Virus record (IMG/VR): IMGVR_UViG_3300015186_000011
Location: 1 to 26,051 of that record
Source: a virus
Taxonomy: Duplodnaviria > Heunggongvirae > Uroviricota > Caudoviricetes
Length of the DNA: 26,051 nt
Strand: one strand, 5' to 3'
The stretch's first letter is position 1. Every line of letters begins with the position of its first letter. The notes under the pieces are model-generated. The model did not search any database, was not told where the DNA came from, and saw only the letters and a list, made by a program, of their open reading frames with translations. Below, piece after piece: positions 1,305 to 22,250 of this stretch. A program made the position numbers and the translations under genes.

Positions 1305-1324
1305 TACTGTATAAACATACAGTT
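1305..1324. promoter_or_regulatory. LexA (SOS) box TACTGTATAAACATACAGTT
   Basis: Perfect CTGT-N8-ACAG with an AT-rich spacer (CTGT 1307-1310, ACAG 1319-1322), matching the E. coli LexA consensus TACTGTATATATATACAGTA. It lies about 20 bp upstream of the RBS of the 1344 gene and overlaps a TATAAA -10-like hexamer at 1310-1315. Confidence 0.65.
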
Positions 1325-1343
1325 ATTGCATGGAGAAGATAAG

Positions 1344-1601
1344 ATGCAGCAGTATCACTATCCACTGGAAGACGGATTTACCGAAAGGATTCACACGCCG
1401 GGAGGCGTCAGATCACTAGTGGAGGGATCGCACTTGATGAAATTACTCCGGGATCTCGATAAGGATGGATTTAATGTCGATGGCCCACTTGCCGAACTGA
1501 CTGCACTGATTAACTACGTCACCAGCTCACAGATGTCTATGCAGGATCTGCAAACACATCTCGACTATTGTGCCGAACAATTACGAAAGCAAACCAGATA
1601 A
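1344..1601 (+). CDS. Small (85 aa) standalone protein homologous to the C-terminal domain of the two antirepressors in this window; candidate SOS-inducible antirepressor
   Basis: ATG at 1344 with GGAG 8 nt upstream (the ORF track begins at a TTG at 1326). The product ...YPLEDGFTERIHTPGGVRSLVEGSHLMKLLRDLDKDGFNVDGPLAELTALINYV...DLQTHLDYC... aligns with the C-termini of the 1915..2607 and 3858..4802 products (YxPLKPGYRSLIHSPSGVLGLTENSLLMNLLN.LQEDGHDVSGAAAELTTMF...DIQTHAEY). Confidence 0.6.
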   Translation: MQQYHYPLEDGFTERIHTPGGVRSLVEGSHLMKLLRDLDKDGFNVDGPLAELTALINYVTSSQMSMQDLQTHLDYCAEQLRKQTR

Positions 1602-1741
1602 GGTTTGCAATTACCAAGCGGAGTGCTTATATTTACCTTTGCGGTAAATTTACATCGCACTCCTCTTGTGCCATAGTAATCGAGCACTGGCAAAATCCAG
1701 TGCCGGGATTGGTCTCCCGGATTACTACAGAGGCACATATG

Positions 1742-1760
1742 CCGCATAAGCGGTTTTTTT
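1742..1760 (+). terminator. Weak putative intrinsic terminator (short CCGC/GCGG stem followed by T7 run)
   Basis: ccgcataagcggttttttt. The stem is only 4 bp, so this is low confidence. Confidence 0.3.
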
Positions 1761-1914
1761 ATGTGTAAAGCGCACCTATTCTATGGTGGGCTGTGTGGGG
1801 GCACCGAAAGGTGCGCCGGGTTCCTTTGTAGCCGGTAAGACCAACTCTGCACAGTTCACCACCATCTGATTGGTCTCAGCGGTGGTGATTAACCTAACTA
1901 CAAAGGTGATCGCC

Positions 1915-2607
1915 ATGAATACCAAACCTTCCATCTTTTCCTTTGAGTCATCCTGCCAGATCCGTATGTTCATGATTGACGGAGAACCTTGGTTTGTCAC
2001 CAAAGATGTGTGCAATGCTTTGAATATTGATGTTACACAAGCGAGAAAACTTGATAAAAAAGGCTGGAACAAAAAGGGGCTGTATTCAATACAGACCCCT
2101 GGTGGAATACAAGAACTATCCATCGTTTCAGAATCAGGTCTCTACATCCTTATTCTGCGTTGCAAAGAGGCAATGACTGAGGGAACGAGAGCATTCAGAT
2201 TTCTTGAATGGGTTACAGGTGAGGTTCTTCCTCAGATCCGCCGCACCGGAAGTTACATTAAAAACTCGCTCCCGCAGGAAGAACGCATAAAGATGGTTGC
2301 CGACCAGGTAGCCAACGCCACGGCGTCAGCAGTGATGCAGGCGATGAAGATAGAGAACAAAACCTACAGTGCCCCACTGAAGCCCGGCTACCGCAGCCTG
2401 ATTCATTCGCCGTCTGGTGTTCTCGGCCTGACGGAGAACTCACTGCTGATGAATTTGCTGAACAAGTTACAGGAAGACGGGCACGATGTATCGGGCGCGG
2501 CAGCGGAGCTGACCACCATGTTCTGCTACATCGTCGGTGTGAGCAAATGCCTGCGTGATATCCAGACGCACGCGGAGTACATCAATGACAAGGCAGGGTT
2601 CTTCTGA
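1915..2607 (+). CDS. Phage antirepressor with BRO-N N-terminal domain and the shared antirepressor C-terminal domain
   Basis: ATG at 1915 preceded by AAGGTGA. N-terminus MNTKPSIFSFES..QIRMFMIDGEPWFVTKDVCNAL is a typical BRO-N signature. The C-terminal ~80 aa are near-identical to the C-terminus of the 3858..4802 product. Confidence 0.75.
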   Translation: MNTKPSIFSFESSCQIRMFMIDGEPWFVTKDVCNALNIDVTQARKLDKKGWNKKGLYSIQTPGGIQELSIVSESGLYILILRCKEAMTEGTRAFRFLEWVTGEVLPQIRRTGSYIKNSLPQEERIKMVADQVANATASAVMQAMKIENKTYSAPLKPGYRSLIHSPSGVLGLTENSLLMNLLNKLQEDGHDVSGAAAELTTMFCYIVGVSKCLRDIQTHAEYINDKAGFF

Positions 2608-2631
2608 CGGGCGGCGGCACATGGATGTGCC
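2373..2631. repeat. Left arm of a ~260-bp inverted repeat (partner 3834..4092), ~95% identical at DNA level
   Basis: Reverse complement of 3834-4092 matches 2373-2631 with only a few mismatches. The match spans the antirepressor C-terminal domain coding sequence and ~24 bp beyond the stop codons (cgggcggcggcaca[t/g]ggatgtgc). Confidence 0.7.
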
Positions 2632-2728
2632 TACAATTATCAATAATTGTTTACACTCGTTGCAGTTAAAAGCATTATACTCATGTTTAAAATTACCCGA
2701 TTGGTAAAGTCGATTGGTTGAGGTTCAT

Positions 2729-3055
2729 ATGAGCAGAAGATATGTCAAGGAGCTGGCTATAGAGTCTGGCACCCCTTTGGGTATCGTTCCTGGCTCCAAC
2801 TATGCCAAGGCTTTAAACCGAGACTCTGTCGTCAAAGTTATATCAAGAGACATGAATATGGTCGGAGACGATCTCAGACGGTCAGAAAATCGTGTTTATG
2901 CTGAATATATAGTAAAGAACGGAAAAAAAATTGCAGCGCCTGCTGGCGGAAAATGGGCAATAGTGACAGGGAAAAACTCAAATGCAAGAGGAAAACCAGA
3001 AGCTAAAGGAATGTCCTTCGACAAATATGCAAAAATCTATTGGGCAACCAAGTGA
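2729..3055 (+). CDS. Hypothetical protein (108 aa), first gene of a plus-strand cassette
   Basis: ATG at 2729 with GAGGT 5 nt upstream. Product MSRRYVKELAIESGTPLGIVPGSNYAKALNRD... has no family I can place. A CAATTATCAATAATTG inverted repeat lies upstream at 2634-2649. Confidence 0.45.
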   Translation: MSRRYVKELAIESGTPLGIVPGSNYAKALNRDSVVKVISRDMNMVGDDLRRSENRVYAEYIVKNGKKIAAPAGGKWAIVTGKNSNARGKPEAKGMSFDKYAKIYWATK

Positions 3056-3530
3056 TAACGAAGAAACTGAGTTCGAGGAAGTTGAGGAAGGGCTAAGTAA
3101 CGAGATCATTCAACACCCAGATGCCTTCACAAGAGTTCTTGATCGCCCTGAAATTCAGGAGATAGTTGTCGCTCACCATGCGTTTCAGGGTCCGCTTCCT
3201 CCCCCCTATCTGCTTCGCGGGTATCAGGATATTTTACCTGATGCCCCCGAACGCATCTTCCAGCTGACGGAGAAGGAGTTTGCTCACCGCCAGAAAATGG
3301 AGGAAAAGGCACTTGACGGGGCTATTAATAGAGATAAACGTGGGCAGTGGTTTGGCCTGAGTGCAACTATTTTTACAGTAGCTTGTGCAACATTATTAGG
3401 TTTAACAGGTCATGAAGTTCTAGCTGGCACAGTGATCGGTACAGTTGTTGCAGTGGCTGGTATTTTTGTTCTCAGACAAAAACCGAGCTTAAAGAAGAAC
3501 GCTGAAGATAAAACACCAGAAGAAGAGTAA
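2982..3530 (+). CDS. DUF2335-like predicted membrane protein (acidic N-terminal region, two C-terminal TM helices)
   Basis: Motif GPLPPPYLLRGYQDILPDAPERIFQLTEKEFAHRQKMEEKALDGAINRDKRGQWFG followed by hydrophobic segments matches my recollection of DUF2335. Start is ambiguous (ATG at 2982 or 3027); both overlap the upstream ORF in another frame. Confidence 0.55.
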   Translation: MQEENQKLKECPSTNMQKSIGQPSDNEETEFEEVEEGLSNEIIQHPDAFTRVLDRPEIQEIVVAHHAFQGPLPPPYLLRGYQDILPDAPERIFQLTEKEFAHRQKMEEKALDGAINRDKRGQWFGLSATIFTVACATLLGLTGHEVLAGTVIGTVVAVAGIFVLRQKPSLKKNAEDKTPEEE

Positions 3531-3553
3531 GCCCGCGACGCGGGCTTTTTTGT
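3531..3553 (+). terminator. Rho-independent terminator
   Basis: GCCCG-cgacg-CGGGC stem-loop followed by TTTTTTGT, immediately after the stop of the DUF2335-like gene. Confidence 0.7.
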
Positions 3554-3623
3554 GGGCGAAACAAAAGTCAGTGCTACACTCATTGACGCCACATTGAGGT
3601 GGTTTATAGATGGAAATTTCACA

Positions 3624-3785
3624 ATGAAAAAAGCATTTGCTGCACTGTTCGTTTTGTTGTCTCTGGTAGCTTCAACTCAGGCCTTTGCCGGTCGTTGTCA
3701 GCACGACAGCGACACTGCTGCTGACGGCTCCCGCTGCGGTGGGCGTTCTGCGGATTCCCGCCCGGGCGGCGGTGGCATTCGTTAA
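3624..3785 (+). CDS. Small putative secreted peptide (53 aa) with N-terminal signal peptide
   Basis: MKKAFAALFVLLSLVASTQAFA has signal-peptide character with an AxA cleavage motif. The mature part is Gly/Arg/Asp-rich with 2 Cys. RBS is weak and the gene is short, so confidence is low. Confidence 0.4.
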   Translation: MKKAFAALFVLLSLVASTQAFAGRCQHDSDTAADGSRCGGRSADSRPGGGGIR

Positions 3786-3807
3786 AAACAAGGCCGCGAA
3801 AGCGGCC

Positions 3808-3821
3808 TGTGACATGTCACG
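3808..3821. promoter_or_regulatory. Copy 1 of the 14-bp palindromic motif CGTGACATGTCACA (read on the minus strand), between convergent genes
   Basis: Perfect 12-bp palindrome GTGACATGTCAC at 3809-3820, just after a GGCCGC-GAAA-GCGGCC hairpin (3792-3807). The identical 14-mer recurs at 22254-22267 and 24519-24532. Confidence 0.6.
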
Positions 3822-3833
3822 ATAGTTTCGTTT

Positions 3834-4092
3834 TGCACATCCCTGTGCCGCCGCCCGTCAGAAGAACCCTGCCTTGTCGTTGATGTACTCCGCGTGCGTC
3901 TGGATATCACGCAGGCATTTGCTCACACCAACGATGTAACAGAACATGGTGGTCAGCTCCGCCGCCGCGCCCGATACATCGTGCCCGTCTTCCTGTAACT
4001 GGTTCAGCAGATTCATCAGCAGTGAGTTCTCCGTCAGACCGAGAACACCAGACGGAGAATGAATCAGACTGCGGTAGCCGGGCTTCAATGGA
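3834..4092. repeat. Right arm of the ~260-bp inverted repeat (partner 2373..2631)
   Basis: See left arm; covers the 3' end of the minus-strand antirepressor gene plus ~24 bp downstream. Confidence 0.7.
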
Positions 4093-4802
4093 TAACCATA
4101 ACATTTTGTCTGTGTTTTAATTGCCTCACGAAGCGCATCTAACATCTTGACTGCCACTTCATCATTCTCTGATGCAGATCCAGCAGGGAGATACTCCCCT
4201 TCAAGCGGAACCCGAGCAACAAGAGACAACGCTTCGGCAAATTGATCTTCACCAATTTCTTTGTACGAACAGCCAAAATGAGATTTCAGTGACGACCACA
4301 TGGTGATCATCGCCTTAGCCTGTTTTTCTTTTGGCAGAGACTGACCGCGACTCATGACGAGTTGTTTAATGGCTTCCTGCTGTTCAGTTGTTATTTTACC
4401 CGGCAACGCCTTTTTAGCTTTGCGTGGGTTAACCACATGGCCTTTAGTCCAGTACTCGTAGAGCACATCGTCACACTCTTCCTGATACTGGATTACCTTG
4501 TCGCGGATTTCAGGGCGGACTTTGTTAGGGCTGATGGTTTGCAGCCAACCTGCAAGTTTGCGTAAAGCAAGACAGATAACCAGACGACGCTGAGTATCAC
4601 CGGGGAGCTGAATGGTCATTTCGACCATGCAGCTCTTAAAGCGTTGTTGCAACTTGCGGAACTGCGTTTTCCAGTCCAGCCCCATACCTTCAACGACTGG
4701 TTTCATTGGGGTGTATGGTTCGCCGTTATGATTGACAACATAAAGCTCTGCGCCGTGGAATGGCACGTTGATAGTAGATACCGCTGTTGCTATACTCGTC
4801 AT
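3858..4802 (-). CDS. ant: P22 Ant-like antirepressor (AntA / P22_AR_N-type N-terminal domain plus shared C-terminal domain)
   Basis: 314-aa ORF with AGGAA RBS. N-terminus ...GAELYVVNHNGEPYTPMKPVVEGMGLDWKTQFRKL is antirepressor N-domain-like. It sits immediately downstream of an Arc-like gene, as in P22 immI. Confidence 0.75.
   Translation of the reverse strand: MTSIATAVSTINVPFHGAELYVVNHNGEPYTPMKPVVEGMGLDWKTQFRKLQQRFKSCMVEMTIQLPGDTQRRLVICLALRKLAGWLQTISPNKVRPEIRDKVIQYQEECDDVLYEYWTKGHVVNPRKAKKALPGKITTEQQEAIKQLVMSRGQSLPKEKQAKAMITMWSSLKSHFGCSYKEIGEDQFAEALSLVARVPLEGEYLPAGSASENDEVAVKMLDALREAIKTQTKCYGYPLKPGYRSLIHSPSGVLGLTENSLLMNLLNQLQEDGHDVSGAAAELTTMFCYIVGVSKCLRDIQTHAEYINDKAGFF
4768..4796 (+). promoter_or_regulatory. 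Sigma70-like promoter (TTGATA-17 bp-TATACT) firing antisense across the ant translation start
   Basis: -35 TTGATA 4768-4773, 17-bp spacer, -10 TATACT 4791-4796. Predicted start near 4803, directly opposite the ant start codon (4800-4802) and RBS. Confidence 0.5.
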
Positions 4803-4877
4803 GTCGTTAATTCCTATACGTAGTTTTACGATACTGAAGCCCTGACGGTCTGGCCACCGTGGGGCTTCGCTGTTTTA
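4803..4877 (+). ncRNA. sar: Candidate sar-like antisense small RNA (~75 nt) complementary to the ant ribosome-binding region
   Basis: A promoter at 4768-4796 and an intrinsic terminator on the same strand (nested hairpin GAAGCCC..ACGGT-ctggcc-ACCGT..GGGCTTC at 4836-4868, then GCTGTTTTAT) bracket a ~75-nt transcript in the arc-ant intercistronic region. This mirrors the sar antisense RNA of P22 immI. Confidence 0.45.
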
Positions 4878-5042
4878 TGCCACGCTATTCTTCTCACCAG
4901 TGAGTCCATACACTTTCCTCAGCTGATAGATAATCTCTGTATTGAACTTTCGGCATTCTTTTTCGCCATTTCTTTCAATAGCTAACTTCACATCGTCCGG
5001 AAAACGAACTCGTCGTTGACACATCTCTTTTGCTTTTTGCAT
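4875..5042 (-). CDS. arc: Arc-like ribbon-helix-helix repressor (55 aa)
   Basis: ATG at 5040-5042 with a strong TAAGGAGA Shine-Dalgarno (the track ORF starts at an upstream GTG). Product MQKAKEMCQRRVRFPDDVKLAIERNGEKECRKFNTEIIYQLRKVYG resembles P22 Arc (..FNLRWPREVLDLVRKVAEENGRSVNSEIYQRV..). It lies upstream of ant and divergent from an Mnt-like gene. Confidence 0.65.
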   Translation of the reverse strand: MQKAKEMCQRRVRFPDDVKLAIERNGEKECRKFNTEIIYQLRKVYGLTGEKNSVA

Positions 5043-5056
5043 TTCATATCTCCTTA

Positions 5057-5071
5057 GCCCCACCGTGGGGC
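5057..5071. promoter_or_regulatory. Palindromic operator candidate GCCCCACCGTGGGGC (Mnt-operator-like core CCACCGTGG) at the predicted +1 of the arc-ant promoter
   Basis: Near-perfect palindrome between the predicted Pant -10 and the arc RBS. The core matches, as I recall it, the P22 mnt operator core CCACGGTGG (reverse complement). The 12-mer CCACCGTGGGGC recurs at 4854-4865. Confidence 0.5.
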
Positions 5072-5077
5072 AAAATA

Positions 5078-5125
5078 ATTGTCACACCGTGCGTCATTGA
5101 TGTCAAGCACACGGTGAGGCATACT
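5078..5125. promoter_or_regulatory. Divergent overlapping promoters: Pant-like (minus strand) and Pmnt-like (plus strand)
   Basis: Minus strand: -35 TTGACA (plus coordinates 5101-5106), 17 bp, extended -10 TGtGACAAT (5078-5083). Plus strand: -35 TTGATG 5097-5102, 17 bp, -10 CATACT 5120-5125. Inverted CACCGTG / CACGGTG half-sites at 5085-5091 and 5110-5116. Confidence 0.5.
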
Positions 5126-5162
5126 TCAATCATTGCAAGTAACTCAATATTTGGTGAAGAAC

Positions 5163-5594
5163 ATGAGCAGAGAAGATCCACAACTAAGGATCAGACTTCC
5201 CGTTGAAGTAAAAGAAAAAATAGAAATTTCTGCAAAAGCCAATAAGCGATCAATGAACGCTGAAATAGTACAACGTCTTGACACCAGCTTTCTGAAAGAT
5301 ATTCATGAAGATGACGTAATTTCTGCTTATGAAGCAAAAATTATTGCAAACAATGCACGACATGAAATATCAAATATTATTTTCAAAAGAACCTTTAATG
5401 AAATTAATAAGAAAATAACACTTGGACATACAAGTTTTTATATAAACCTTAATGACCTTGAACTGGAATCACTTGCAGATAATGATTACCAGATCATCTT
5501 TGAAAAAACATTTAATAAGCTCAATGAACTAGGTTACATCATCTGTGAAAACTCATGGGATGCAGATGGTTTTGGAATTGAAATACCTGAATAG
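5163..5594 (+). CDS. mnt: Mnt-like ribbon-helix-helix repressor with an AT-rich C-terminal extension (143 aa)
   Basis: ATG at 5163 (track ORF starts at a TTG at 5133). N-terminus MSREDPQLRIRLPVEVKEKIEISAKANKRSMNAEIVQRL closely resembles P22 Mnt (MARDDPHFNFRMPMEVREKLKFRAEANGRSMNSELLQIV). The C-terminal ~95 aa have no match I recognise and the DNA turns markedly AT-rich. Confidence 0.7.
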   Translation: MSREDPQLRIRLPVEVKEKIEISAKANKRSMNAEIVQRLDTSFLKDIHEDDVISAYEAKIIANNARHEISNIIFKRTFNEINKKITLGHTSFYINLNDLELESLADNDYQIIFEKTFNKLNELGYIICENSWDADGFGIEIPE

Positions 5595-5607
5595 GAAGAA
5601 CAAAAGG

Positions 5608-5630
5608 CGTGTACATATTACACGTCTTTA
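5608..5630 (+). terminator. Hairpin CGTGTA-catat-TACACG followed by a T-rich tract; putative terminator or operator
   Basis: 6-bp inverted repeat with TCTTTAAT downstream, between the Mnt-like gene and the membrane-protein gene. Confidence 0.3.
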
Positions 5631-5684
5631 ATACAATTGAAAAACGCCACATTACTGATGTATGTTACAACAAGGAGCGATATT

Positions 5685-6248
5685 TTGAAAACCATATCTA
5701 TATTAAAGGTTGCATTAGGCGTCGCTATTATTTTGACTCTCTCAATATTGTTTTATTTTTACCACAAAAAAACTGCTATTGCTCTTGATGGTCACGCGGC
5801 AAACTCATTTTTCTCAGAGTACATAGTGCCGCTATCAGGAAGCGGTATAACAAATAAATATACTGACTATGACATCAAATATGGAATTGATGATGGGGAG
5901 ACTATTGTATTACATGTAATCATTAAAAACCTAATGACAGTAAATAAAAATACAGACTTCAACGATAAAAATACAATACATCACAACAACAGCAAAACAT
6001 TAATTTCTTATAGTAGCAACATCTATACGGATAAATACCTAAAATACATATCAGAAGATACAATAAAAGAAACCCGCGAAAAGTTAAAAAACATATATTG
6101 TGCATCCGGCAGTTTTCACAAATTATCGCCGCAAGAGCGTTTATTCTACGAAGCAAGAAAACAACGTAAGTCAATAATATTACATTATTATGCTGATTCA
6201 GGGGAGTCACTCATATTTAATATTGGGGTTTCCCCTGAATCATGCTAA
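5685..6248 (+). CDS. AT-rich moron: membrane-anchored protein of unknown function (~188 aa), candidate superinfection-exclusion or abortive-infection factor
   Basis: TTG start at 5685 with AGGAG 8 nt upstream (alternatives: ATG 5658, track TTG 5637). N-terminal hydrophobic helix ISILKVALGVAIILTLSILFYFY, then an Asn/Lys/Tyr-rich domain. GC content is far below the flanking phage genes. Confidence 0.5.
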   Translation: MKTISILKVALGVAIILTLSILFYFYHKKTAIALDGHAANSFFSEYIVPLSGSGITNKYTDYDIKYGIDDGETIVLHVIIKNLMTVNKNTDFNDKNTIHHNNSKTLISYSSNIYTDKYLKYISEDTIKETREKLKNIYCASGSFHKLSPQERLFYEARKQRKSIILHYYADSGESLIFNIGVSPESC

Positions 6249-6259
6249 AGGTGTTTAAC

Positions 6260-9200
6260 TCACCGCATCACCGGATCCACCTGGTTTATTAGTGGCGCAA
6301 TCCAGAACAGGTTATTGCCGGGTATCAGGGTTCGGACATTATGCACAATACGATCACCGGCATCACCATTCAACACTCCTGCGGTCACATCAATGATGCT
6401 ATCCGCAAGACCAAATGACGGTCCGAATAGAGATCCTACGAATCCACGACTGGCATACCTAGACTGTGTGCCAGTGCCAAATAAAGCCCCCAGCCCAACA
6501 GCACCACCAGTAGCCTTTTCAGCCATGTTGTTATATTCCATCAATGGCCCAAGAATACCGGATCTATCTATACCCTCAAGCACCAGCTTCTCTGGTGACC
6601 AGTCAACATTTTTCCCTTTCGATGCTTCTTTAAGCGCATAGACCAGTGAGCCAAGAGCAATCTGAAATGCAGTGCCATAATAAAATTGCGCAGTTCCTTC
6701 CTGTAACCCACCAAGTAGCGCACGGTTGTATGAAGCCGTTGTGAATGATTTAAACTGAAATATCGTTCGCCCCATTGGAGTACTCGCCCATAAAGGTGTG
6801 TCACCAATACCGGGGGTGATGATAGTGTTATTAACGTCTTTCAGAACCGCTGACTGGAATACTCCGGCAACGTACTGATCGTCCCATTTATCAAAGTTAC
6901 CAATGTGCCATCCATCAATTACCTCACCATGTTTCTCGAACTCACTGCGAATACGCGCAGCCATATTGTCGTTGATACCGAGTTTTGCCATGCGACGTGC
7001 AGAAAACGCACCAGACAAAATACCGTCTGACGTGAGCATTCCGTTCATGGATTTGTTTATGTCATTAAATCGATCCATGAGTGTCAGCTTGCCGAAGGCA
7101 TCAGTAATTCGCTCCATTCCTGCTTCGACTGCTGTTGTCCTGGAAGAACTGTCAACAAGATCACCAATTGCACGAGAACGTGAATGTAGTACAGTTTCCA
7201 ATCCAATCCCCATCTTCAACATCTCTTCTTTGCTGGCCTTAAATGCCGGTGATTGGGATATCTGAGAAGCATAGCCTTTCATGGTGTTACGGAAACCATT
7301 AACCATAACCCCTCTGGCCAGATCTGGAATAGCTGATACTGTCATTCCACCGAGTTTGGTCGTGAAGTTCACATCCCGCAGAAAAGCGCCAGCACGAACA
7401 AAAAACGAAGACGGGTCATCAGGCATACCATATGTACCAACAAGACGATCGCGTAATGCTGTTATGTCTCTGAGATCATTTGCTCTTGATTTTGAAAGTC
7501 TGGACTGTTCTTTCCGTAATTCCTTTTCGTACTTTCGCATTAATGAATCGAGTTTACCCTGAGGAACAACTTCACCATTGCTCTCATAACGTGCTTTCAG
7601 ATTTGCCACACTTTCGTCATATTTCGCCTTTATTTTTTCAGGCACTTCCCGTAACAGACTGTCATATTCGTCCTCAATTAATTGCAGACGCTCAGTCATA
7701 GTTCGTTTGCCAAATGTTCTCGTCAACTCAATTTCTGCTGCCGCTTCACGGATATGACGTTGCAGCACGTAATTCACATCACTTTCAAGATAATCCCTGA
7801 TAAGACTATCAGGAACATTTAATGTTCTTTCTTTCGTACTACCTGCGGCTTTTACAGAAAATACGCTGACAAAATCCTGTGGAACCTTAGCACCAGTAAT
7901 TTTATTAATTACGATATCCGCTGCAATTTCAGCATCCTCAGGATCCAGTGTTTTATTGCCTCTCGACCACCAGTCAACCAAAATACGTCGAAATTTATCG
8001 CGTTCACTGATTATTTTTCCAACTTTATATATACGTGGAAAATAGCTTGCCTGGCCTAATGCTTTCAGTTCTTCATCTGGCGGTAATAAACCAAGCTTTT
8101 GCATTTCAACCTTCACCCGATTTAATACAGTTCGCATCGCCTGCGCCGTTTCCTGAACAACAGGATTAGCATGCACATCACCGCTTCGCATAGCATTCCC
8201 AACCTGCTGACGAAATGAATCAAAACTCATGTCGCCACCATCAGCTTTATACTTTGCGTATGCCTGTTTATTTCCGACAACAACAGCAGCTTCTTCACGC
8301 TGCCATCCACGTGTACGGGTTTCTACAGCTACCGGTGTTTCAATCCCCCTTTCATTTCCTTTAAGGGTGAAATTATTTTCGGCTAACTCCAGCGTTGTTT
8401 TTCGCACTGTCTTGGACGGAGACTCCATTAACCTTGTCAAAGGAGTAAGATAGCTCCCTGCTTTCCATGCAGCCTTTCCAACCCACCCACCGGAAACAGG
8501 GGTTAAATCATCCAGAGTCGCTGTATCAATTTTCATAGCACCAACACTACCACCATCAGAAAGCGAAGCGGCAGCCCTGTCAGTCGCTGATGTAATGCTC
8601 ATATTATCAAGAGCATCAGCAACCTCACGCGTGGCTGCAGCCCGGACGGATGGCGAAAGCGCAACACCAGCACTGGCAAACACGCCGCTCATCATCGCAC
8701 CCGCTGCAACGTGAGCGGCACTTTCACCCCATGAGCGTGTTATTTGCTGATTATTCAGCACAACCTCGCTTAATGCTGTACCGGCAGCACCAATCGCAAT
8801 CTGTGAGCCAATACGCGCCAGTGCCCCTCCTTGAGCACCGGGGATAAACATTGACGCAACAGTAACCGGATCCATTCCCGCAGCAATACTGGCAAGAGTT
8901 CCAACTACGCCAGCATCAGACAATAAACGTCTGTCTTCATTTTCATCATCTATCTGCTGCTTAATCCACGCCGTTTCCTCTGGCGATCGGGAATCTGCAA
9001 ATTTCGCCCCCCAGTATTCATAACCGTGCAACTCATTTTTATCAGCATATGGGTTATAACCTTCGACCGGTTCAAACTGTCTGGCTGGTCGGAAAAAACC
9101 AGCCAGAATATTGTTCTGTCGCATTGCAGCCCCCCATACGGAAGGCTCCGGTGGCAATGGCTCAGGATTAGCCCCTTCCGGAAGGGCAACATCAAACCCA

Positions 9201-9274
9201 GTTTGTTCCGGCAAAACATTACCTGACGGGATCAGTCCGTTATTAAGATCTTCAGCTTGTGCATAAACTGGCAT
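6260..9274 (-). CDS. Large internal virion / ejection protein (1004 aa), T7 gp16-position analogue
   Basis: Last and largest ORF of the coupled structural operon; its start overlaps the upstream stop (TAATG at 9274). Ala/Gly-rich with coiled-coil segments. Assignment is by size and synteny only. Confidence 0.55.
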   Translation of the reverse strand: MPVYAQAEDLNNGLIPSGNVLPEQTGFDVALPEGANPEPLPPEPSVWGAAMRQNNILAGFFRPARQFEPVEGYNPYADKNELHGYEYWGAKFADSRSPEETAWIKQQIDDENEDRRLLSDAGVVGTLASIAAGMDPVTVASMFIPGAQGGALARIGSQIAIGAAGTALSEVVLNNQQITRSWGESAAHVAAGAMMSGVFASAGVALSPSVRAAATREVADALDNMSITSATDRAAASLSDGGSVGAMKIDTATLDDLTPVSGGWVGKAAWKAGSYLTPLTRLMESPSKTVRKTTLELAENNFTLKGNERGIETPVAVETRTRGWQREEAAVVVGNKQAYAKYKADGGDMSFDSFRQQVGNAMRSGDVHANPVVQETAQAMRTVLNRVKVEMQKLGLLPPDEELKALGQASYFPRIYKVGKIISERDKFRRILVDWWSRGNKTLDPEDAEIAADIVINKITGAKVPQDFVSVFSVKAAGSTKERTLNVPDSLIRDYLESDVNYVLQRHIREAAAEIELTRTFGKRTMTERLQLIEDEYDSLLREVPEKIKAKYDESVANLKARYESNGEVVPQGKLDSLMRKYEKELRKEQSRLSKSRANDLRDITALRDRLVGTYGMPDDPSSFFVRAGAFLRDVNFTTKLGGMTVSAIPDLARGVMVNGFRNTMKGYASQISQSPAFKASKEEMLKMGIGLETVLHSRSRAIGDLVDSSSRTTAVEAGMERITDAFGKLTLMDRFNDINKSMNGMLTSDGILSGAFSARRMAKLGINDNMAARIRSEFEKHGEVIDGWHIGNFDKWDDQYVAGVFQSAVLKDVNNTIITPGIGDTPLWASTPMGRTIFQFKSFTTASYNRALLGGLQEGTAQFYYGTAFQIALGSLVYALKEASKGKNVDWSPEKLVLEGIDRSGILGPLMEYNNMAEKATGGAVGLGALFGTGTQSRYASRGFVGSLFGPSFGLADSIIDVTAGVLNGDAGDRIVHNVRTLIPGNNLFWIAPLINQVDPVMR

Positions 9275-11991
9275 TATTTAGATCCCCACGAAAAGTAATC
9301 TTTAAATTTGTCCATACGTTCGTTATGCAGGCGCTGATACTGCTCATCCAGAGCGCGATGCTTGTCTTTGAAGTTTCGTATAGCCTGTCCACGCATAATT
9401 TCTTCCTGCTCGTACTGCTCCCATTCCTGCTGCATTTTCTTATAAGGTTCCCAATCTTCTAGTGATGGTTCCCAACGCATAGGACGCCCATGTTTGTTAT
9501 AAAACGGCTGGACCCGATCGATGCCATTTTCATCCTTAGTTCTTACCATAATGGCGTAATCACCATTACGAGGTGTTAACACGTCAGGGGTTATGAATAA
9601 TTCTCCATTAATACGACTCTCAGGGGTTTTTGTCTCAACTACAGGAGCATTACCTGACGTGATCCCAAGCAACGTCGGACTGGTTGTTATAATCTCTTTG
9701 CGCTCACCGTACATCAGCCGTTCTTTTTCAGCTTTCCACTGCGCCGCCTGCCAGCCTGACGGCCCATATTGATAAAGCGCCTCCGGTGCATATTTCATAA
9801 ACTGCGCTTCTCCGTTAACCTCGCTGATACTCCAGGTGCGGGCTATCTGCTGGTTGGTCATTTGCTTCGCTACGTCAGCGTTACCACCAGCAACGCGGTA
9901 GTTAATGTCATACAGCGTCTGATAGTCATTACGGAATCTAGCTGCTTCCGGCGTCTGGTCATCCGCAGACGGATCCCAACGGAACCACTGCGCCATATTG
10001 CTGACAGCAGAATTCATCGCCTTGCTGCGATCATTTTTGTACTCTTTTGAACTCTGCGTTGATGCCAATTGAGCTTTAAGAGCATCGGTCTGGTTGTACG
10101 TAAGGTTCTGCGCCTGCTCGATAGCCGCATCAGCAGACATGCCAGAATCAGTTAGTTGCTTAACAGTCAGATAAAAACCCTGCATATCCTTCGGCATATT
10201 TCCAATAGATGCATTGTCTGTTTCATATAACCGACTAAACAGTTCCGCCGCATTTTTAACCACTTCCTGATTGCTGGATCGGGATACTGCTGAAAGCTGC
10301 GTGATGACCTGCGAAGGCATTATGCCAGTCTGAGCCACAAGCCGAACAACCCCATCATGAGTGGAGGCATCATTAATACGAAAGTTCTGCGCCATTTCTG
10401 TGTAATCAGCAGCTTTCTGCATTGACTTGTTGCTTGGGTCTAATTTTTCACCTATTGTCAGCGCCTCATTGAATCTGCGTGAATCCCGTTGCGCCTGAAT
10501 TGCTTCATTTGATCTCTGAAGCAATGCAGACAATTTTCCGTAAGCATCGAGTTTTAACGCATAGTGAGGATCGTTAACCTCAGGCTTCACTTTCTGCATT
10601 TCTTCTTGCTGCTGAGAAGGAGGCAAATACTGAATTGCCTGGAATATTCTCGCGTTATCAATCGCTATATCCAGTTGATTGATTATTTTATCTGCGTTTT
10701 TTCCATACCCCCTGATGATGGTCTCCTGAGCCGGTATATAATCTGGAACCTCACCGTTATATAGCTGTGCCATGGTGTTATTAATAGCTGGCTCAAGCTG
10801 TTCTAATATTAACTTCCTTTGCTTTTCTATCTGACTATTAGCAAGGTTATCTATTTGATAAATAGTCAGCGGATCCATTCCAGTTTTATTTTTTCTATAT
10901 CGGGAAAGCCACCCTTGTGTTTCTGATGGAAGATTTCGGATAAATTCTTCTTCTGATATTTCACCTTTACGTGGATCACCGACTTTGGCGATCAGTTTAT
11001 CCACGTTACCCATCCCCCAGTTATATGCTGCTCCGGTCAATATTTCGGAACCGTACTTACCATACAGTTGATTTACATAGTCACTGGCGAGCATTTCATG
11101 CTGTTGTTCGTCCGTAGGGTTGTATTCAACGCCACGCTTGGCCGCCAGTTCTTTTCCTGTGCCCGGCATTAACTGGTATTTCCCCTGTGCTCTCTCTCCA
11201 GAAGATGTTATCGGTCCCTCAAGAAGACTACCATCAGGATTAAAATGTCGATCACCTGATTCAACAAGGCGTATGGCACGCATGTCCATGCCTCCAGAAT
11301 CATTTTTCTGAAACAGACCATTTAGCCATCCTTCTGGATTGGCAGCGGCATAATTCTTCGCCCGCATTTCTGTGGCACTGCGATCATCACTTTCTATTTC
11401 TTCCAGAATGCGTTCTTGTGACCATCCCCTGGCAGCTCCATATCTGGCAATGGCTACCATTCTGGAATTTCGGGCTAAGGTGGCAGTTTGCGGGTCATTC
11501 CAGGCATCCGCTTCATTTTGTATCCATAATTTTCTCGTTGCCTGATATTGCTCATCTTCATAGGCATTTGTCTGCCCTATCTCATGTCTGAGAACTCCAG
11601 TACTGAACTGAATTTTCTGTGTTCTGGCTTGTTGCAAAAACATATTTCTTGCTGCTTCATCAGTCAATGAAGCAGCTATTTCTTCCACATCCTGATCAAA
11701 TCCAGATATGTACTCTTGCCCCTTACCAATCGCATTTTTGCCTTGTTGTGCATAAAAACCGGTTTGAGGGTTATAAAGACGTTCATTGCTGCGCTGATTA
11801 AGCTGAAGGATGGCATCCTGAGACAATGCAACATTCGCTTTCTGCCTGGCTTCACCATATGCCACCGCATACTGATCTGCGACATTCGCCAGCACCTGAC
11901 CTGCTTGAGGAACATCGAAGGTCTGAAAACCACCGGTTTGCACACCACGACTTTGCACCTGACGTCCGGATATTGTTGGTACGACTGGCAT
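9274..11991 (-). CDS. Internal virion protein with a soluble lytic transglycosylase (SLT) domain (906 aa)
   Basis: True start is probably the ATG at 11991 (MPVVPTISG..), with GGAGG 6 nt upstream and a TAATG overlap with the preceding gene; the track ORF extends to 12066. SLT signature LVESGDRHFNP...SSGERAQGKYQLMPGTGKELA...TGAAYNWGMGNV lies at roughly 11000-11310. Confidence 0.65.
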   Translation of the reverse strand: MPVVPTISGRQVQSRGVQTGGFQTFDVPQAGQVLANVADQYAVAYGEARQKANVALSQDAILQLNQRSNERLYNPQTGFYAQQGKNAIGKGQEYISGFDQDVEEIAASLTDEAARNMFLQQARTQKIQFSTGVLRHEIGQTNAYEDEQYQATRKLWIQNEADAWNDPQTATLARNSRMVAIARYGAARGWSQERILEEIESDDRSATEMRAKNYAAANPEGWLNGLFQKNDSGGMDMRAIRLVESGDRHFNPDGSLLEGPITSSGERAQGKYQLMPGTGKELAAKRGVEYNPTDEQQHEMLASDYVNQLYGKYGSEILTGAAYNWGMGNVDKLIAKVGDPRKGEISEEEFIRNLPSETQGWLSRYRKNKTGMDPLTIYQIDNLANSQIEKQRKLILEQLEPAINNTMAQLYNGEVPDYIPAQETIIRGYGKNADKIINQLDIAIDNARIFQAIQYLPPSQQQEEMQKVKPEVNDPHYALKLDAYGKLSALLQRSNEAIQAQRDSRRFNEALTIGEKLDPSNKSMQKAADYTEMAQNFRINDASTHDGVVRLVAQTGIMPSQVITQLSAVSRSSNQEVVKNAAELFSRLYETDNASIGNMPKDMQGFYLTVKQLTDSGMSADAAIEQAQNLTYNQTDALKAQLASTQSSKEYKNDRSKAMNSAVSNMAQWFRWDPSADDQTPEAARFRNDYQTLYDINYRVAGGNADVAKQMTNQQIARTWSISEVNGEAQFMKYAPEALYQYGPSGWQAAQWKAEKERLMYGERKEIITTSPTLLGITSGNAPVVETKTPESRINGELFITPDVLTPRNGDYAIMVRTKDENGIDRVQPFYNKHGRPMRWEPSLEDWEPYKKMQQEWEQYEQEEIMRGQAIRNFKDKHRALDEQYQRLHNERMDKFKDYFSWGSK

Positions 11992-21598: not shown

Positions 21599-21675
21599 GT
21601 GGCATTAGCTCAGTTGGACAGAGCAACCGCCTTCTAAGCGGTTGGTCGCAGGTTCGAATCCTGCATGCCACGCCA
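21599..21675 (+). tRNA. tRNA-Arg, anticodon UCU (reads AGA), with encoded CCA
   Basis: Cloverleaf read by hand: acceptor GTGGCAT/ATGCCAC, D-arm GCTC..GAGC, anticodon stem ACCGC/GCGGT with loop CTTCTAA (anticodon TCT), T-arm GCAGG-TTCGAAT-CCTGC, discriminator G and CCA. Acceptor stem differs from host argU as I recall it, consistent with a phage-borne copy. Confidence 0.8.
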
Positions 21676-21761: not shown

Positions 21762-21838
21762 CAGCAGGACGCCATTGCGATGACTTCATGCTGTAAACCC
21801 GTACAGCCACGGAAGGCAGAACTCATTGCTTCCAGTTC

Positions 21839-21878: not shown

Positions 21879-22250
21879 ATGAGTGACAAAGACATTGAAT
21901 CTGAAATTCAGGCTAAAGGTTTAGCCGCGCCGCGCGTTACGCCAGACCATATCGAGAGCATTATTGCTCAGGAGGCATATTTCACAGCAGAAGATGGTGT
22001 CTTTGGCGTAGCCATAAAAGCGAAACATACTGGCGGAGAGGTAAACTACCAGCCGCACGAATCACTTTCTCTGCTGACTTTCTGCGTTCTGGTGCTGCGC
22101 AACGGCTTCACCGTCACCGGAGAGAGCGCCTGTGCAAGCCCGGAAAACTTTGATGCGGAAATTGGTCGGAAGATTGCCCGGCAGAATGCTGTAAACAAAA
22201 TCTGGATGCTTGAAGGTTACTTGCTGAAGCAGAAGTTAAGCGAGCAATAA
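21879..22250 (+). CDS. Phage Gp49 / Sf6 gene-66 family protein (123 aa)
   Basis: MSDKDIESEIQAKGL...LSLLTFCVLVLRNGFTVTGESACASPENFDAEIGRKIARQNAVNKIW matches my recollection of this conserved small phage protein family. Confidence 0.6.
   Translation: MSDKDIESEIQAKGLAAPRVTPDHIESIIAQEAYFTAEDGVFGVAIKAKHTGGEVNYQPHESLSLLTFCVLVLRNGFTVTGESACASPENFDAEIGRKIARQNAVNKIWMLEGYLLKQKLSEQ

What the first reader, a model, noticed from the sequence alone, without database searches (positions are those of the whole stretch)
2373..4092. ~260-bp near-identical inverted repeat bracketing a 1.2-kb three-gene cassette
The 3' ends of the two convergent antirepressor genes plus ~24 bp of downstream non-coding DNA form an inverted repeat at ~95% identity, far higher than the rest of the two genes. 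That argues for recent gene conversion or recombination. Inverted repeats of this length are substrates for RecA-mediated inversion, which would flip the enclosed cassette (2632-3833) and swap the 3' ends of the two antirepressor genes.
Basis: seen in the sequence. Interest (0 to 1): 0.65.

Follow-up and report, generated by a model that had tools for sequence, protein, structure and literature searches.

The report
Shared antirepressor domain forms inverted repeat
Two facing antirepressor genes of an E. coli prophage end in the same repressor-binding domain, so their ends form a 255-bp inverted repeat around a swappable cargo cassette; related prophages show that recombination between such repeats has occasionally flipped the cassette, but this is ordinary phage mosaicism, not a switch.

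Summary
The arms 2376-2630 and 3835-4089 are 244/255 (95.7%) complementary, and their flanks match no better than chance. Each arm is one protein domain plus 23 nt after the stop codon. The domain is homologous to the small antirepressor of Salmonella phage SPC32H (PDB 5D50).

It ends a BRO-N gene on the left and a P22_AR_N gene on the right. A third, diverged copy stands alone behind a LexA box.

The claim of recent gene conversion is not supported. Synonymous divergence between the arms is 0.19 and dN/dS is 0.03. Arm pairs within a genome (96.3%) are no more alike than arms from different genomes (96.3%).

The arm is a module shared across the population, joined to at least six N-terminal sequence types. 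It has a sharp junction to at least six alternative downstream sequences, one of them the tail. The cassette also occurs next to a single arm.

The inversion idea is partly supported on an evolutionary timescale. Thirty-three complete E. coli genomes (three configurations) and two IMG/VR contigs carry a flipped cassette. Their arm pairs are unusually alike (97.4-100%).

No invertase is present, and orientation is fixed within lineages. This is a new member of a known kind and of modest interest.

The parts
1307..1322 (+). Perfect LexA box CTGTATAAACATACAG upstream of the small antirepressor gene.
   Evidence: One search finds it with 0 mismatches. The surrounding sequence is shown.
1344..1601 (+). 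Stand-alone small antirepressor of 85 aa. It is a third, diverged copy of the domain that the arms encode.
   Evidence: It matches PDB 5D50_E (SPC32H Ant) at E=4e-47 and PHROG 450. It is 42% identical to the arm domain.
1684..1760 (+). isrK-type Hfq-binding sRNA with its terminator.
   Evidence: Rfam RF01394 scores 74.7 bits against a gathering score of 50. A terminator lies at 1741-1754.
1779..1866 (+). C4 antisense RNA of the P1/P7 immI type, in the leader of the BRO-N gene.
   Evidence: Rfam RF01695 scores 78.6 bits against a gathering score of 45, E=4e-14.
1915..2607 (+). Left antirepressor gene: a Bro-N N-terminal domain followed by the shared C-terminal Ant domain.
   Evidence: Pfam Bro-N E=2e-13 and PHROG 130/450. 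The start codon is taken from the annotated orthologues. The homologue in phage ZX5 lowers lysogeny when overexpressed (PMC9782041).
2376..2630 (+). Left arm of the inverted repeat: 229 nt of coding sequence, the stop codon and 23 nt after it.
2608..2630 (+). The 23-nt post-stop element CGGGCGGCGGCACATGGATGTGC, which forms the inner end of the left arm. The cassette starts at the next base.
2631..3834 (+). Variable cargo cassette (moron slot) of 1204 nt enclosed by the arms.
   Evidence: At least six alternative sequences (five cassette heads, or the convergent tail) follow the arm at exactly this junction in relatives. Promoter-like sites lie at 2650-2693.
2729..3055 (+). Cassette gene 1, a hypothetical protein of 108 aa.
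   Evidence: PHROG 10654, E=1e-65. It is annotated as a CDS in relatives.
2982..3530 (+). Cassette gene 2, a DUF2335 membrane protein.
   Evidence: Pfam PF10097 E=1.6e-15. PHROG 3996, functional category 'moron'.
3529..3547 (+). Intrinsic terminator hairpin followed by a T run, after the DUF2335 gene.
3624..3785 (+). Cassette gene 3, a 53-aa signal-peptide protein. It is the conserved 'tail' of the slot and is present in nearly all relatives.
   Evidence: PHROG 14503, 'membrane associated protein', E=2e-40. Architecture survey.
3791..3808 (-). Intrinsic terminator for the minus strand, which ends the right antirepressor transcript.
   Evidence: sequence.
3835..4089 (-). Right arm of the inverted repeat.
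   Evidence: It is 100% identical to the TL-2011b arm.
3858..4802 (-). Right antirepressor gene: a P22_AR_N N-terminal domain followed by the shared C-terminal Ant domain.
   Evidence: Pfam PF10547 E=2.9e-45. Residues 233-309 match 5D50_E at E=7.5e-14.
4804..4871 (+). sar antisense RNA of the P22 immI type, with a promoter-like site at 4768-4796.
   Evidence: Rfam RF00262 scores 44.8 bits against a gathering score of 43. Promoter scan.
4875..5042 (-). Arc-like small repressor gene, upstream of ant on the same strand.
   Evidence: The DNA is identical to the TL-2011b CDS annotated 'Arc-like repressor'. It had no Pfam hit here. A promoter-like site lies at 5106-5078 on the minus strand.
5163..5594 (+). 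Mnt-like gene with an Arc-family ribbon-helix-helix domain, divergent from arc-ant.
   Evidence: Pfam PF03869 E=1.2e-14. Annotated in relatives.

Best explanation
The inverted repeat is a by-product of domain sharing. Two convergent antirepressor genes, with unrelated N-terminal halves and different control circuits, both end in the same ~76-residue domain. The left gene is controlled by isrK/C4 RNA and the right gene by Mnt/Arc/sar. The shared domain is a homologue of the SPC32H small antirepressor, which binds the phage repressor, and it is followed by 23 conserved nucleotides.

The DNA identity is held by strong purifying selection on the domain. It is also held by continual homologous exchange of this module among E. 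coli phiV10/TL-2011b-like (Uetakevirus) prophages. It does not come from recent conversion between the two copies in this genome.

The arm on one side and the conserved 53-aa gene plus terminator ('tail') on the other act as homologous flanks. Between them, autonomous cargo cassettes (morons) are exchanged.

Because the two arms are inverted, rare homologous recombination between them can flip the cassette. A flip swaps the gene ends, which differ by only one amino acid (K/Q). It also re-assigns the minus-strand terminator and the downstream cassette from one antirepressor transcript to the other. This has happened a few times in the family. Here it is a slow evolutionary process, not a regulated switch.

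Shown: the anatomy, the homology, the population pattern and the flipped relatives. Inferred: repressor binding by the fused domains, co-transcription of the cassette with the upstream gene, and homologous recombination as the flipping mechanism.
For: Repeat and boundaries.

Domain identity: the arm domain matches PDB 5D50_E at E=7.5e-14, and the stand-alone paralogue matches at E=4e-47. The outer boundary of the arm coincides with the start of that homology.

Selection: 9 synonymous, 1 non-synonymous and 1 non-coding difference; dS 0.19, dN/dS 0.03.

No concerted evolution: within-genome identity is 0.9626 and between-genome identity 0.9628.

Module character:
- The arm is joined to at least six distinct N-terminal sequence types. 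They span Bro-N variants, P22_AR_N, ORF6N and AntA/AntB.
- In 64 other viral contigs, P22_AR_N homologues carry a different C-terminus.
- The 112 arm copies give 100 haplotypes. All four gametes occur in 269/630 site pairs, and Rm is at least 16.
- The arm is more diverged from the nearest relative (8/255) than its flanks are (2/506 and 0/425).

Slot: a sharp junction to at least six alternative downstream sequences lies exactly after the 23 nt. The same outer genes enclose different cassettes.

Flips:
- MS 196-1, SCU-387 plus 30 others, and CUVET21-H2 carry a flipped cassette, as do IMG/VR loci L024 and L083.
- The same cassette, with identical proteins, occurs in both orientations next to the same P22_AR_N/arc/mnt context: L084 against L086 and L088.
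- Arm identity in flipped loci is 0.974-1.000, against a mean of 0.96 in 24-27 unflipped loci (p=0.0006; p=0.001).

Regulatory context.

Experimental support from the literature: the ZX5 BRO-N antirepressor promotes the lytic route (PMC9782041). [quoted passage not shown]
Against: - No pair of genomes was found that differs only by the inversion. The inverted form of the window and the un-inverted form of L084 each gave 0 records at 80% coverage or more. Flips by double crossover with an inverted donor therefore cannot be excluded.
- The link between flipping and arm identity was noticed post hoc, rests on five loci and assumes they are independent.
- The two IMG/VR cases could be orientation errors of short-read assembly, which would themselves be favoured by near-identical arms.
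- Repressor binding by the fused domains is inferred from 42% identity to the stand-alone Ant. They might target a different repressor.
- Promoters and terminators are consensus matches only.
- SNPs were too few to map a crossover.
Confidence: 0.78

Rival explanations
1. Recent gene conversion or recombination between the two copies within this genome produced the near-identity.
For: The repeat ends sharply and includes 23 non-coding nucleotides, so protein selection alone does not explain it. Some genomes do have homogenised pairs: L083 is 100% identical and L085 is 99.6% identical in the coding part.
Against: - dS between the window's arms is 0.19.
- Its pair identity of 0.957 is at or below the population median. 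Any two arms from different genomes are equally similar.
- The right arm is identical to that of TL-2011b.
- The left arm's 8 private differences match the right arm at only 3 interleaved sites.
- The 23 nt are conserved in more than 100 arms regardless of any partner.
Confidence: 0.06
2. The repeat is a frequently flipping, RecA-dependent polymorphism in this lysogen. Flipping would rewire which antirepressor transcript carries the cassette and which gene has a terminator.
For: Perfect stretches of 50, 37, 35 and 27 bp exist within the arms. Flipped relatives exist. After a flip the BRO-N gene would gain the 3791-3808 terminator and the P22-type ant gene would read into the cassette.
Against: - All 31 genomes of the SCU-387-type lineage have the same orientation.
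- All three genomes with the window's architecture are unflipped, and none is flipped.
- No isolated phage in the phage collection is flipped.
- From general knowledge, 4.3% divergence should strongly depress homologous recombination through mismatch repair.
Confidence: 0.1
3. The repeat belongs to a programmed site-specific inversion or cassette-insertion system. The 23-nt imperfect palindrome GGCACA(T/G)GGATGTGC(C) at each inner arm end would be the recombination site.
For: Every cassette type begins at exactly the same base after the 23 nt. The element also occurs on its own between two cassettes in MS 196-1.
Against: - No recombinase or invertase gene lies in the region, either in the window (Pfam) or in eight annotated relatives.
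- The lone element in MS 196-1 is explained by a 10-nt microhomology junction.
- Flipped loci have homogenised coding parts of the arms, as expected for homologous rather than site-specific exchange.
- Conserved flanks (arm and tail) are enough to explain cassette swapping.
Confidence: 0.04
4. The repeat acts at the RNA level. A read-through transcript would fold into a 255-bp hairpin, or produce antisense RNA to the opposite antirepressor gene, and so silence it.
For: The geometry allows it, and both flanking circuits already use antisense RNAs (C4 and sar).
Against: Terminators at 3529-3547 (+) and 3791-3808 (-) lie between the arms. Most relatives have only one arm, so the module does not depend on pairing. 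This was not tested directly.
Confidence: 0.02

Closest known systems
SPC32H (epsilon15-like) Rep/Ant antirepression system. The small LexA-controlled antirepressor is in PDB 5D50 (Kim & Ryu 2013 J Virol; Kim et al. 2016 PNAS; cited from memory and via PMC7380047 and PMC9638917).
   Same: The stand-alone gene at 1344-1601, with its LexA box, is a close orthologue (E=4e-47). The arms encode a homologous domain (E=7.5e-14; 42% identity to the window's own stand-alone copy).
   Different: In the arms the domain is fused to the C-terminus of large BRO-N and P22_AR_N proteins. Those genes lack a LexA box and sit under RNA-based or Mnt/Arc-based control. Repressor binding by the fused form is untested.
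P22 immI region (mnt, arc, sar, ant).
   Same: The gene order, strands, sar RNA, Arc-family Mnt-like gene and P22_AR_N domain of the right-hand unit all match.
   Different: The P22-type C-terminal domain is replaced by the SPC32H-Ant-like domain. In 64 other viral contigs the same N-terminal part carries a different C-terminus.
P1/P7 immI (c4 antisense RNA controlling ant) and the Gifsy-1 isrK-orf45-anrP locus (PMC4825925).
   Same: isrK and C4 RNA genes lie directly upstream of an antirepressor-like gene on the same strand.
   Different: The downstream protein is a Bro-N fusion with the Ant domain. No antQ-type antiterminator was examined. Regulation is inferred from Rfam matches only.
Homologous-recombination inversions between inverted repeats in bacterial chromosomes, for example the prophage-mediated large rearrangements in E. 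coli O157:H7 (PMC8743559) and S. aureus (PMC6778178).
   Same: Inverted homologous segments act as breakpoints, both orientations are seen among relatives, and no dedicated recombinase is involved.
   Different: The scale is 1-2.4 kb inside a single prophage. The arms are only 255 bp and about 96% identical. The arms are functional domain-coding sequence, so a flip leaves both genes intact.
Site-specific invertible segments of phages (Mu G/Gin, P1 C/Cin, Salmonella Hin). This comparison rests on general knowledge.
   Same: An inverted repeat brackets a segment, and inversion would swap the 3' ends of two convergent genes.
   Different: There is no invertase gene and there are no short crossover sites. 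Orientation is fixed within lineages, and the swapped ends are virtually identical, so no alternative protein results.
Morons and cargo hot spots of temperate phages flanked by conserved genes. This comparison rests on general knowledge; PHROGs places two of the cassette genes in its 'moron' category.
   Same: These are autonomous promoter-gene-terminator units of variable content at a fixed position, exchanged through conserved flanks.
   Different: One of the conserved flanks is itself duplicated in inverted orientation, which adds inversion to the repertoire of rearrangements.

Membership tests
SPC32H-type small antirepressor domain (PDB 5D50, PHROG 450) | Significant sequence homology to the solved Ant chain over the whole domain. 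| tested here: met
   Arm domain: E=7.5e-14, residues 233-309 against 3-79 of 86. Stand-alone copy: E=4e-47. PHROG 450 matches all three copies.
SPC32H-type small antirepressor domain (PDB 5D50, PHROG 450) | LexA/SOS-controlled promoter. | tested here: not met
   A perfect LexA box lies only upstream of the stand-alone gene, at 1307-1322. None lies upstream of the two fused genes. The feature is therefore met for the stand-alone copy and not for the arms' genes.
SPC32H-type small antirepressor domain (PDB 5D50, PHROG 450) | Binds the phage repressor and dissociates its tetramer. | not testable with these tools
   The only indirect support is that the BRO-N homologue of phage ZX5 reduces lysogeny when overexpressed (PMC9782041).
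P22-type immI (right-hand unit) | A divergent Mnt-like gene, an Arc-like gene upstream of ant on the same strand, a sar antisense RNA between arc and ant, and an Ant with a P22_AR_N domain. | tested here: met
   PF03869 E=1.2e-14 and PF10547 E=2.9e-45. sar scores 44.8 bits against a gathering score of 43. The Arc-like CDS is known from the annotation of identical TL-2011b DNA, although it had no Pfam hit here.
P22-type immI (right-hand unit) | P22-type Ant C-terminal domain. | tested here: not met
   The protein matches only P22_AR_N in Pfam. Its C-terminus is the 5D50-like domain.
P1/P7 c4-ant and Gifsy-1 isrK-anrP type control (left-hand unit) | C4 and/or isrK RNA gene directly upstream of an antirepressor-like gene on the same strand. 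| tested here: met
   RF01695 scores 78.6 bits and RF01394 scores 74.7 bits, at 1684-1866. The Bro-N gene starts at 1915.
Programmed site-specific inversion switch (Hin/Gin/Cin-type, shufflon) | A dedicated recombinase gene next to the invertible segment. | tested here: not met
   No recombinase domain was found in any ORF from 1326 to 6248. None is annotated within about 3-4 kb in the relatives.
Programmed site-specific inversion switch (Hin/Gin/Cin-type, shufflon) | Both orientations coexist within a clone or lineage. | tested here: not met
   All 31 genomes of one lineage are flipped. All three genomes with the window's architecture are unflipped. Read-level data were not available.
Homologous-recombination inversion between inverted repeats | Inverted homology with uninterrupted identical stretches long enough for RecA-type pairing. 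| tested here: met
   The repeat is 255 bp with perfect runs of 50, 37, 35 and 27 bp. The threshold of roughly 25-30 bp comes from general knowledge.
Homologous-recombination inversion between inverted repeats | Relatives carry the enclosed segment in both orientations, with breakpoints inside the repeats. | tested here: met
   L084 and L085 against L086, L088 and L087 for one cassette. L083 against L076 and L059. L024 against L039. L004 for the window's own cassette.
Homologous-recombination inversion between inverted repeats | A pair of genomes that differ only by the inversion. | tested here: not met
   Synthetic inverted and un-inverted queries found 0 records at 80% coverage or more among 5,426 E. 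coli genomes.
Homologous-recombination inversion between inverted repeats | A footprint of exchange in the repeats (homogenisation or chimerism). | tested here: inconclusive
   Flipped loci have arm identity of 0.974-1.000 against a mean of 0.96 (p=0.0006, 5 v 24 loci; p=0.001, 5 v 27 loci). The test was post hoc, has n=5, and an assembly artefact is possible for two loci. Crossover mapping failed.
Moron / cargo cassette | Own promoter and terminator, variable presence at a fixed site, and content unrelated to neighbouring functions. | tested here: met
   At least five alternative cassette heads follow the arm at the same base, and clustering gave twelve inter-arm sequence types. Promoter-like and terminator-like sites are consensus matches only. 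PHROG assigns the category 'moron' to two of the genes.

The most novel reading that the evidence does not exclude
The prophage would run three separately wired antirepressor genes: SOS/LexA, isrK/C4 RNA and Mnt/Arc/sar. All three would deliver the same repressor-binding domain. The DNA identity of that shared domain would make it an active recombination module. Within lysogen populations it would flip the enclosed cargo cassette at measurable frequency. That would switch the cassette's read-through expression and the terminator between the two antirepressor operons. Across phages it would shuffle the sensor halves of the antirepressor genes.
Probability: 0.12. Interest if true: 0.55.

Novelty: new member of a known kind. 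Interest (0 to 1): 0.34.

Why it matters
The result shows how a functional protein domain can double as a recombination handle. One ~76-residue antirepressor domain, kept about 96% identical across E. coli Uetakevirus-like prophages, links interchangeable regulatory N-terminal halves to a slot for cargo genes. Where two copies face each other, the slot can be flipped without damaging either gene.

For annotation, these 'BRO-N' and 'P22_AR_N' proteins are probably true antirepressors that use an SPC32H-Ant-like effector domain. A single prophage may therefore integrate up to three induction inputs.

For assembly and comparative work, the result flags a 255-bp inverted repeat at which cassette orientation can truly differ between strains, or be mis-assembled. 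It does not reveal a new mechanism.

Tried and rejected
1. I searched for an exact inversion partner. The window with its cassette inverted in silico gave no record at 80% coverage or more, only the partial case MS 196-1. The flipped SCU-387 locus, un-inverted in silico, also gave none, only halves.
2. I tried to map a crossover point from SNPs in the arms of L084-L088. There were too few informative sites.
3. I tested whether the left arm's private variants came from the right arm. Only 3 of 8 sites match, and they are interleaved, so there is no conversion tract.
4. The scan of species-representative genomes found only two distant relatives (68-71% identity), in Superficieibacter and Scandinavium. 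It gave no further convergent pairs.
5. A second IMG/VR scan with the N-terminal part of the right gene returned the same contigs, plus 64 Ant homologues with other C-termini. It gave no new flipped loci.
6. The same junction query found no flipped case among isolated phages.
7. The primary SPC32H papers could not be read. Statements about that system rest on PDB 5D50, on a secondary description (PMC9638917) and on memory.
8. I considered the 23-nt element as a site-specific recombination site and rejected it. There is no recombinase, and its lone copy in MS 196-1 is explained by microhomology.
9. I considered an assembly artefact or chance repeat for the window and rejected it, because the repeat recurs in many genomes.


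Full report
**1. Observation.**

The repeat is real. The repeat finder gives arms 2339-2630 and 3835-4126 (292 nt, 91% complementary). Counting in register gives a sharply bounded core at 2376-2630 / 3835-4089 with 244/255 matches (95.7%). In the same register the outer flank matches at 26% and the inner flank at 30%, which is chance level (alignment).

The left gene's stop codon is at 2605-2607 and the right gene's is at 3858-3860. The last 23 nt of each arm are therefore non-coding. That 23-mer occurs only at these two places in the window, against 0 expected from shuffles. Three ORFs lie between the arms.

**2. Anatomy of the locus.**

Reading left to right:
- A perfect LexA box at 1307-1322.
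- An 85-aa gene at 1344-1601.
- An isrK sRNA at 1684-1760 and a C4 antisense RNA at 1779-1866 (Rfam).
- A Bro-N-domain gene at 1915-2607 (Pfam).
- The cassette at 2631-3834. It holds a 108-aa hypothetical gene, a DUF2335 membrane protein, a terminator at 3529-3547 and a 53-aa signal-peptide protein. It also holds a minus-strand terminator at 3791-3808.
- On the minus strand, a P22_AR_N-domain gene at 3858-4802.
- A sar antisense RNA at 4804-4871.
- An Arc-like gene at 4875-5042 (annotation of identical TL-2011b DNA).
- A divergent Mnt-like Arc-family gene at 5163-5594.

The two convergent genes therefore belong to two different, well-known antirepressor control circuits. The left one is of the P1/P7 c4 and Gifsy-1 isrK-anrP type (PMC4825925). 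The right one is of the P22 immI type.

The window is a phiV10/TL-2011b-like (Uetakevirus) E. coli phage or prophage. Positions 3835-6259 are 100% identical to TL-2011b. Positions 1870-3055 are 99-100% identical to a prophage common in E. coli, except within the arm.

**3. What the arms encode.**

Residues 233-309 of the right protein match the 86-aa antirepressor of Salmonella phage SPC32H (PDB 5D50 chain E) at E=7.5e-14. The high-identity DNA begins where that homology begins.

The stand-alone 85-aa gene behind the LexA box matches the same chain at E=4e-47. It is 42% identical to the arm domain.

The two large proteins share 83% identity over their last 101 residues and are otherwise only marginally similar. 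Each arm is thus one complete protein domain plus 23 nt, and the window holds three copies of that domain.

SPC32H Ant is described as a tetramer that binds two repressor dimers and breaks the repressor tetramer (PMC9638917). The BRO-N homologue of phage ZX5 lowers lysogeny when overexpressed (PMC9782041). That the fused domains bind the repressor is an inference.

**4. Population survey.**

A scan of IMG/VR with the 78-aa domain gave 79 loci. I mapped them locally together with annotated E. coli loci, using the scripts.

The arm is the C-terminus of at least six N-terminal sequence types. They span several Bro-N variants, P22_AR_N, ORF6N and AntA/AntB. Conversely, 64 other viral contigs carry P22_AR_N homologues with a different C-terminus.

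The homology ends at exactly the same base, 23 nt after the stop, in more than 100 arms. At least six unrelated sequences follow it. Five are cassette heads, which begin with promoter-like sites. The sixth is the convergent 'tail', that is, the 53-aa gene and terminator.

The commonest architecture has a single arm, with the small ant gene, a BRO-N-type gene, the arm, an optional cassette and the tail. About 30 loci have a convergent pair. The same outer genes enclose different cassettes, including a YafO-like toxin, a 210-aa protein, a 174-aa membrane protein and the DUF2335 set.

The window's own cassette is common next to a single arm with no second arm. At least 25 listed E. coli records and phage EC.W1-9 show this.

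**5. Test of 'recent gene conversion'.**

Of the 11 differences between the window's arms, 9 are synonymous, one changes K to Q and one is non-coding. This gives dS=0.19 and dN/dS=0.03.

Across 30 within-genome pairs the coding identity averages 0.9626. Across 6,186 between-genome pairs it averages 0.9628. The window's value is 0.957, so the two copies in a genome are no more alike than any two copies in the population.

The arms are highly recombinant. The 112 copies give 100 haplotypes, 269 of 630 site pairs show all four gametes, and Rm is at least 16. Twenty-eight of 35 informative coding sites are third positions.

Between the window and its nearest relative the arm differs at 8/255 sites, while the flanks differ at 2/506 and 0/425. 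Only 3 of those 8 sites match the window's other arm, and they are interleaved with sites that do not.

The identity therefore reflects purifying selection plus population-wide exchange of a shared module. It does not reflect a recent event between these two copies.

**6. Test of 'inversion substrate'.**

The window with its cassette inverted in silico found no full match in 5,426 complete E. coli genomes. It did pick out strain MS 196-1. There the DUF2335 cassette lies inverted relative to the small-ant/BRO-N frame, follows an ORF6N-type gene that ends in the arm, and is joined to a second, YafO-type cassette.

A frame-anchored query (small ant + arm + reversed tail) found the flipped state in 33 of 560 matching genomes. 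These fall into three configurations: MS 196-1, CUVET21-H2, and SCU-387 with 30 others that gave identical scores.

At least 71 genomes have a tail-arm convergent junction. By genome count the flipped state is therefore not rare, but it represents few lineages.

In SCU-387 the right-hand context (P22_AR_N ant, arc, mnt) is the same as in the window, and the cassette is co-oriented with the right gene. The same cassette, encoding identical proteins, is unflipped next to the same right-hand genes in strains 2016C04-116 and KC-Dl-1. It occurs next to a single arm in EC5654.

Two IMG/VR loci (L024, L083) are also flipped relative to loci that carry a 98-99% identical cassette.

The five flipped loci have arm-arm coding identities of 1.000, 0.996, 0.987, 0.978 and 0.974. 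The mean in 24-27 unflipped loci is 0.96 (Mann-Whitney p=0.0006 and p=0.001). Only 20% of random arm pairs reach 0.974.

This pattern is expected if the flips arose by homologous exchange between the arms with associated conversion. It is equally expected if only unusually similar arms recombine. Caveats:
- The test was post hoc.
- There are only five loci, and their independence is unproven.
- For the two short-read-derived contigs, near-identical arms could themselves cause orientation errors.

No pair of genomes differing only by the flip was found. Orientation is constant within lineages. No isolated phage is flipped.

**7. Mechanism and rivals.**

The best-supported reading is as follows.
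- The repeat exists because two convergent genes share an effector domain.
- The arm and the tail are the conserved flanks of a moron slot.
- Rare homologous recombination between the inverted arms can flip the slot.

A flip would leave both proteins essentially unchanged, since they differ by one K/Q residue. It would move the minus-strand terminator to the BRO-N gene and place the cassette downstream of the P22-type ant gene (inference).

The arms contain perfect runs of 50, 37, 35 and 27 bp. Exchange is therefore possible, but at 4.3% divergence it should be infrequent (general knowledge of mismatch-repair barriers).

The rivals fare as follows.
- A site-specific switch is unlikely. No recombinase lies in the window's ORFs or in eight annotated relatives. 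The isolated 23-nt element in MS 196-1 is explained by a 10-nt microhomology (CGGGCGGCGG) with the end of the 53-aa gene.
- An RNA-level role for the repeat is untested. Terminators lie between the arms, and single-arm genomes predominate, which both argue against it.

**8. Comparison with what is known, and novelty.**

Each component belongs to a described family:
- the SPC32H-type Ant domain;
- the P22 immI region;
- c4/isrK-controlled antirepressors;
- morons;
- inversions between inverted repeats driven by homologous recombination (for example PMC8743559).

As far as I could find, three points have not been described:
- the fusion of the SPC32H-Ant-like domain to BRO-N, P22_AR_N, ORF6N and AntA proteins;
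- its role as the conserved junction of a cargo slot;
- the occasional cassette flips between two such copies.

This makes the finding a new member of known kinds, useful for annotation and for understanding mosaicism, but not surprising to a phage geneticist. The module at about 96% identity appears confined to E. coli-type prophages. Species-representative genomes gave only two relatives, at 68-71% identity, in other Enterobacteriaceae.

**9. Verdict.**

- Recent conversion in this genome is not supported.
- The repeat as a substrate for homologous inversion is supported historically in relatives.
- An active or programmed flip is not supported.

Interest is modest.

Noticed in passing
window 1307-1601: A perfect LexA box (CTGTATAAACATACAG) lies 21 nt upstream of an 85-aa gene. 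That gene is a close orthologue (E=4e-47) of the structurally solved SPC32H small antirepressor. It is a third, diverged copy (42% aa identity) of the domain encoded by the arms.
   Followed up: yes
window 1684-1866 and 4804-4871: Rfam finds isrK and C4 antisense RNA genes in the leader of the BRO-N gene. It also finds a P22-type sar RNA between the arc-like gene and the right ant gene. The window thus has three antirepressor genes under three different known control circuits.
   Followed up: partly
window 3809-3820: A perfect 12-bp palindrome, GTGACATGTCAC, directly abuts the minus-strand terminator hairpin at 3791-3808. It is conserved in all 'tail' junctions of relatives and could be a protein-binding site.
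   Followed up: no
L004 (E. coli MS 196-1) 6055-6090: Two cargo cassettes are joined through a 10-nt microhomology (CGGGCGGCGG). The microhomology is shared by the 23-nt post-stop element and the 3' end of the 53-aa gene. The join truncates that gene and leaves a lone copy of the 23-nt element.
   Followed up: partly
window 1870-6259: The window is a mosaic. Positions 3835-6259 are 100% identical to phage TL-2011b. Positions 1870-3055 are 99-100% identical to a widespread E. coli prophage (L003). The left arm is the exception, differing at 8/255 sites, so the arm is more diverged than its flanks.
   Followed up: partly
L083 (IMG/VR UViG_3300045988_096329) 4600-9600: This contig carries three arm copies and an additional inverted unit (P22_AR_N-like fragment, Bro-N variant and arm) beside the flipped cassette. 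Its two cassette-flanking arms are identical over the whole coding part.
   Followed up: partly
window 21791-21806 and 21599-21675: A second perfect CTGT-N8-ACAG motif (CTGTAAACCCGTACAG) lies about 70 nt upstream of ORF 21879-22250. A tRNA-Arg(TCT) gene lies just before it.
   Followed up: no
window 3624-3785: This gene encodes a 53-aa protein with a signal peptide and a two-cysteine, Gly/Arg-rich mature part. It is conserved in nearly every relative regardless of cassette content. Its function is unknown.
   Followed up: no
L106-L169 (IMG/VR): Sixty-four viral contigs encode P22_AR_N antirepressor homologues that are 79-85% identical over the first 205-224 residues. They end in a different C-terminal domain (...[27 protein letters not shown]). 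This pattern is consistent with C-terminal effector-domain swapping between immunity groups.
   Followed up: partly
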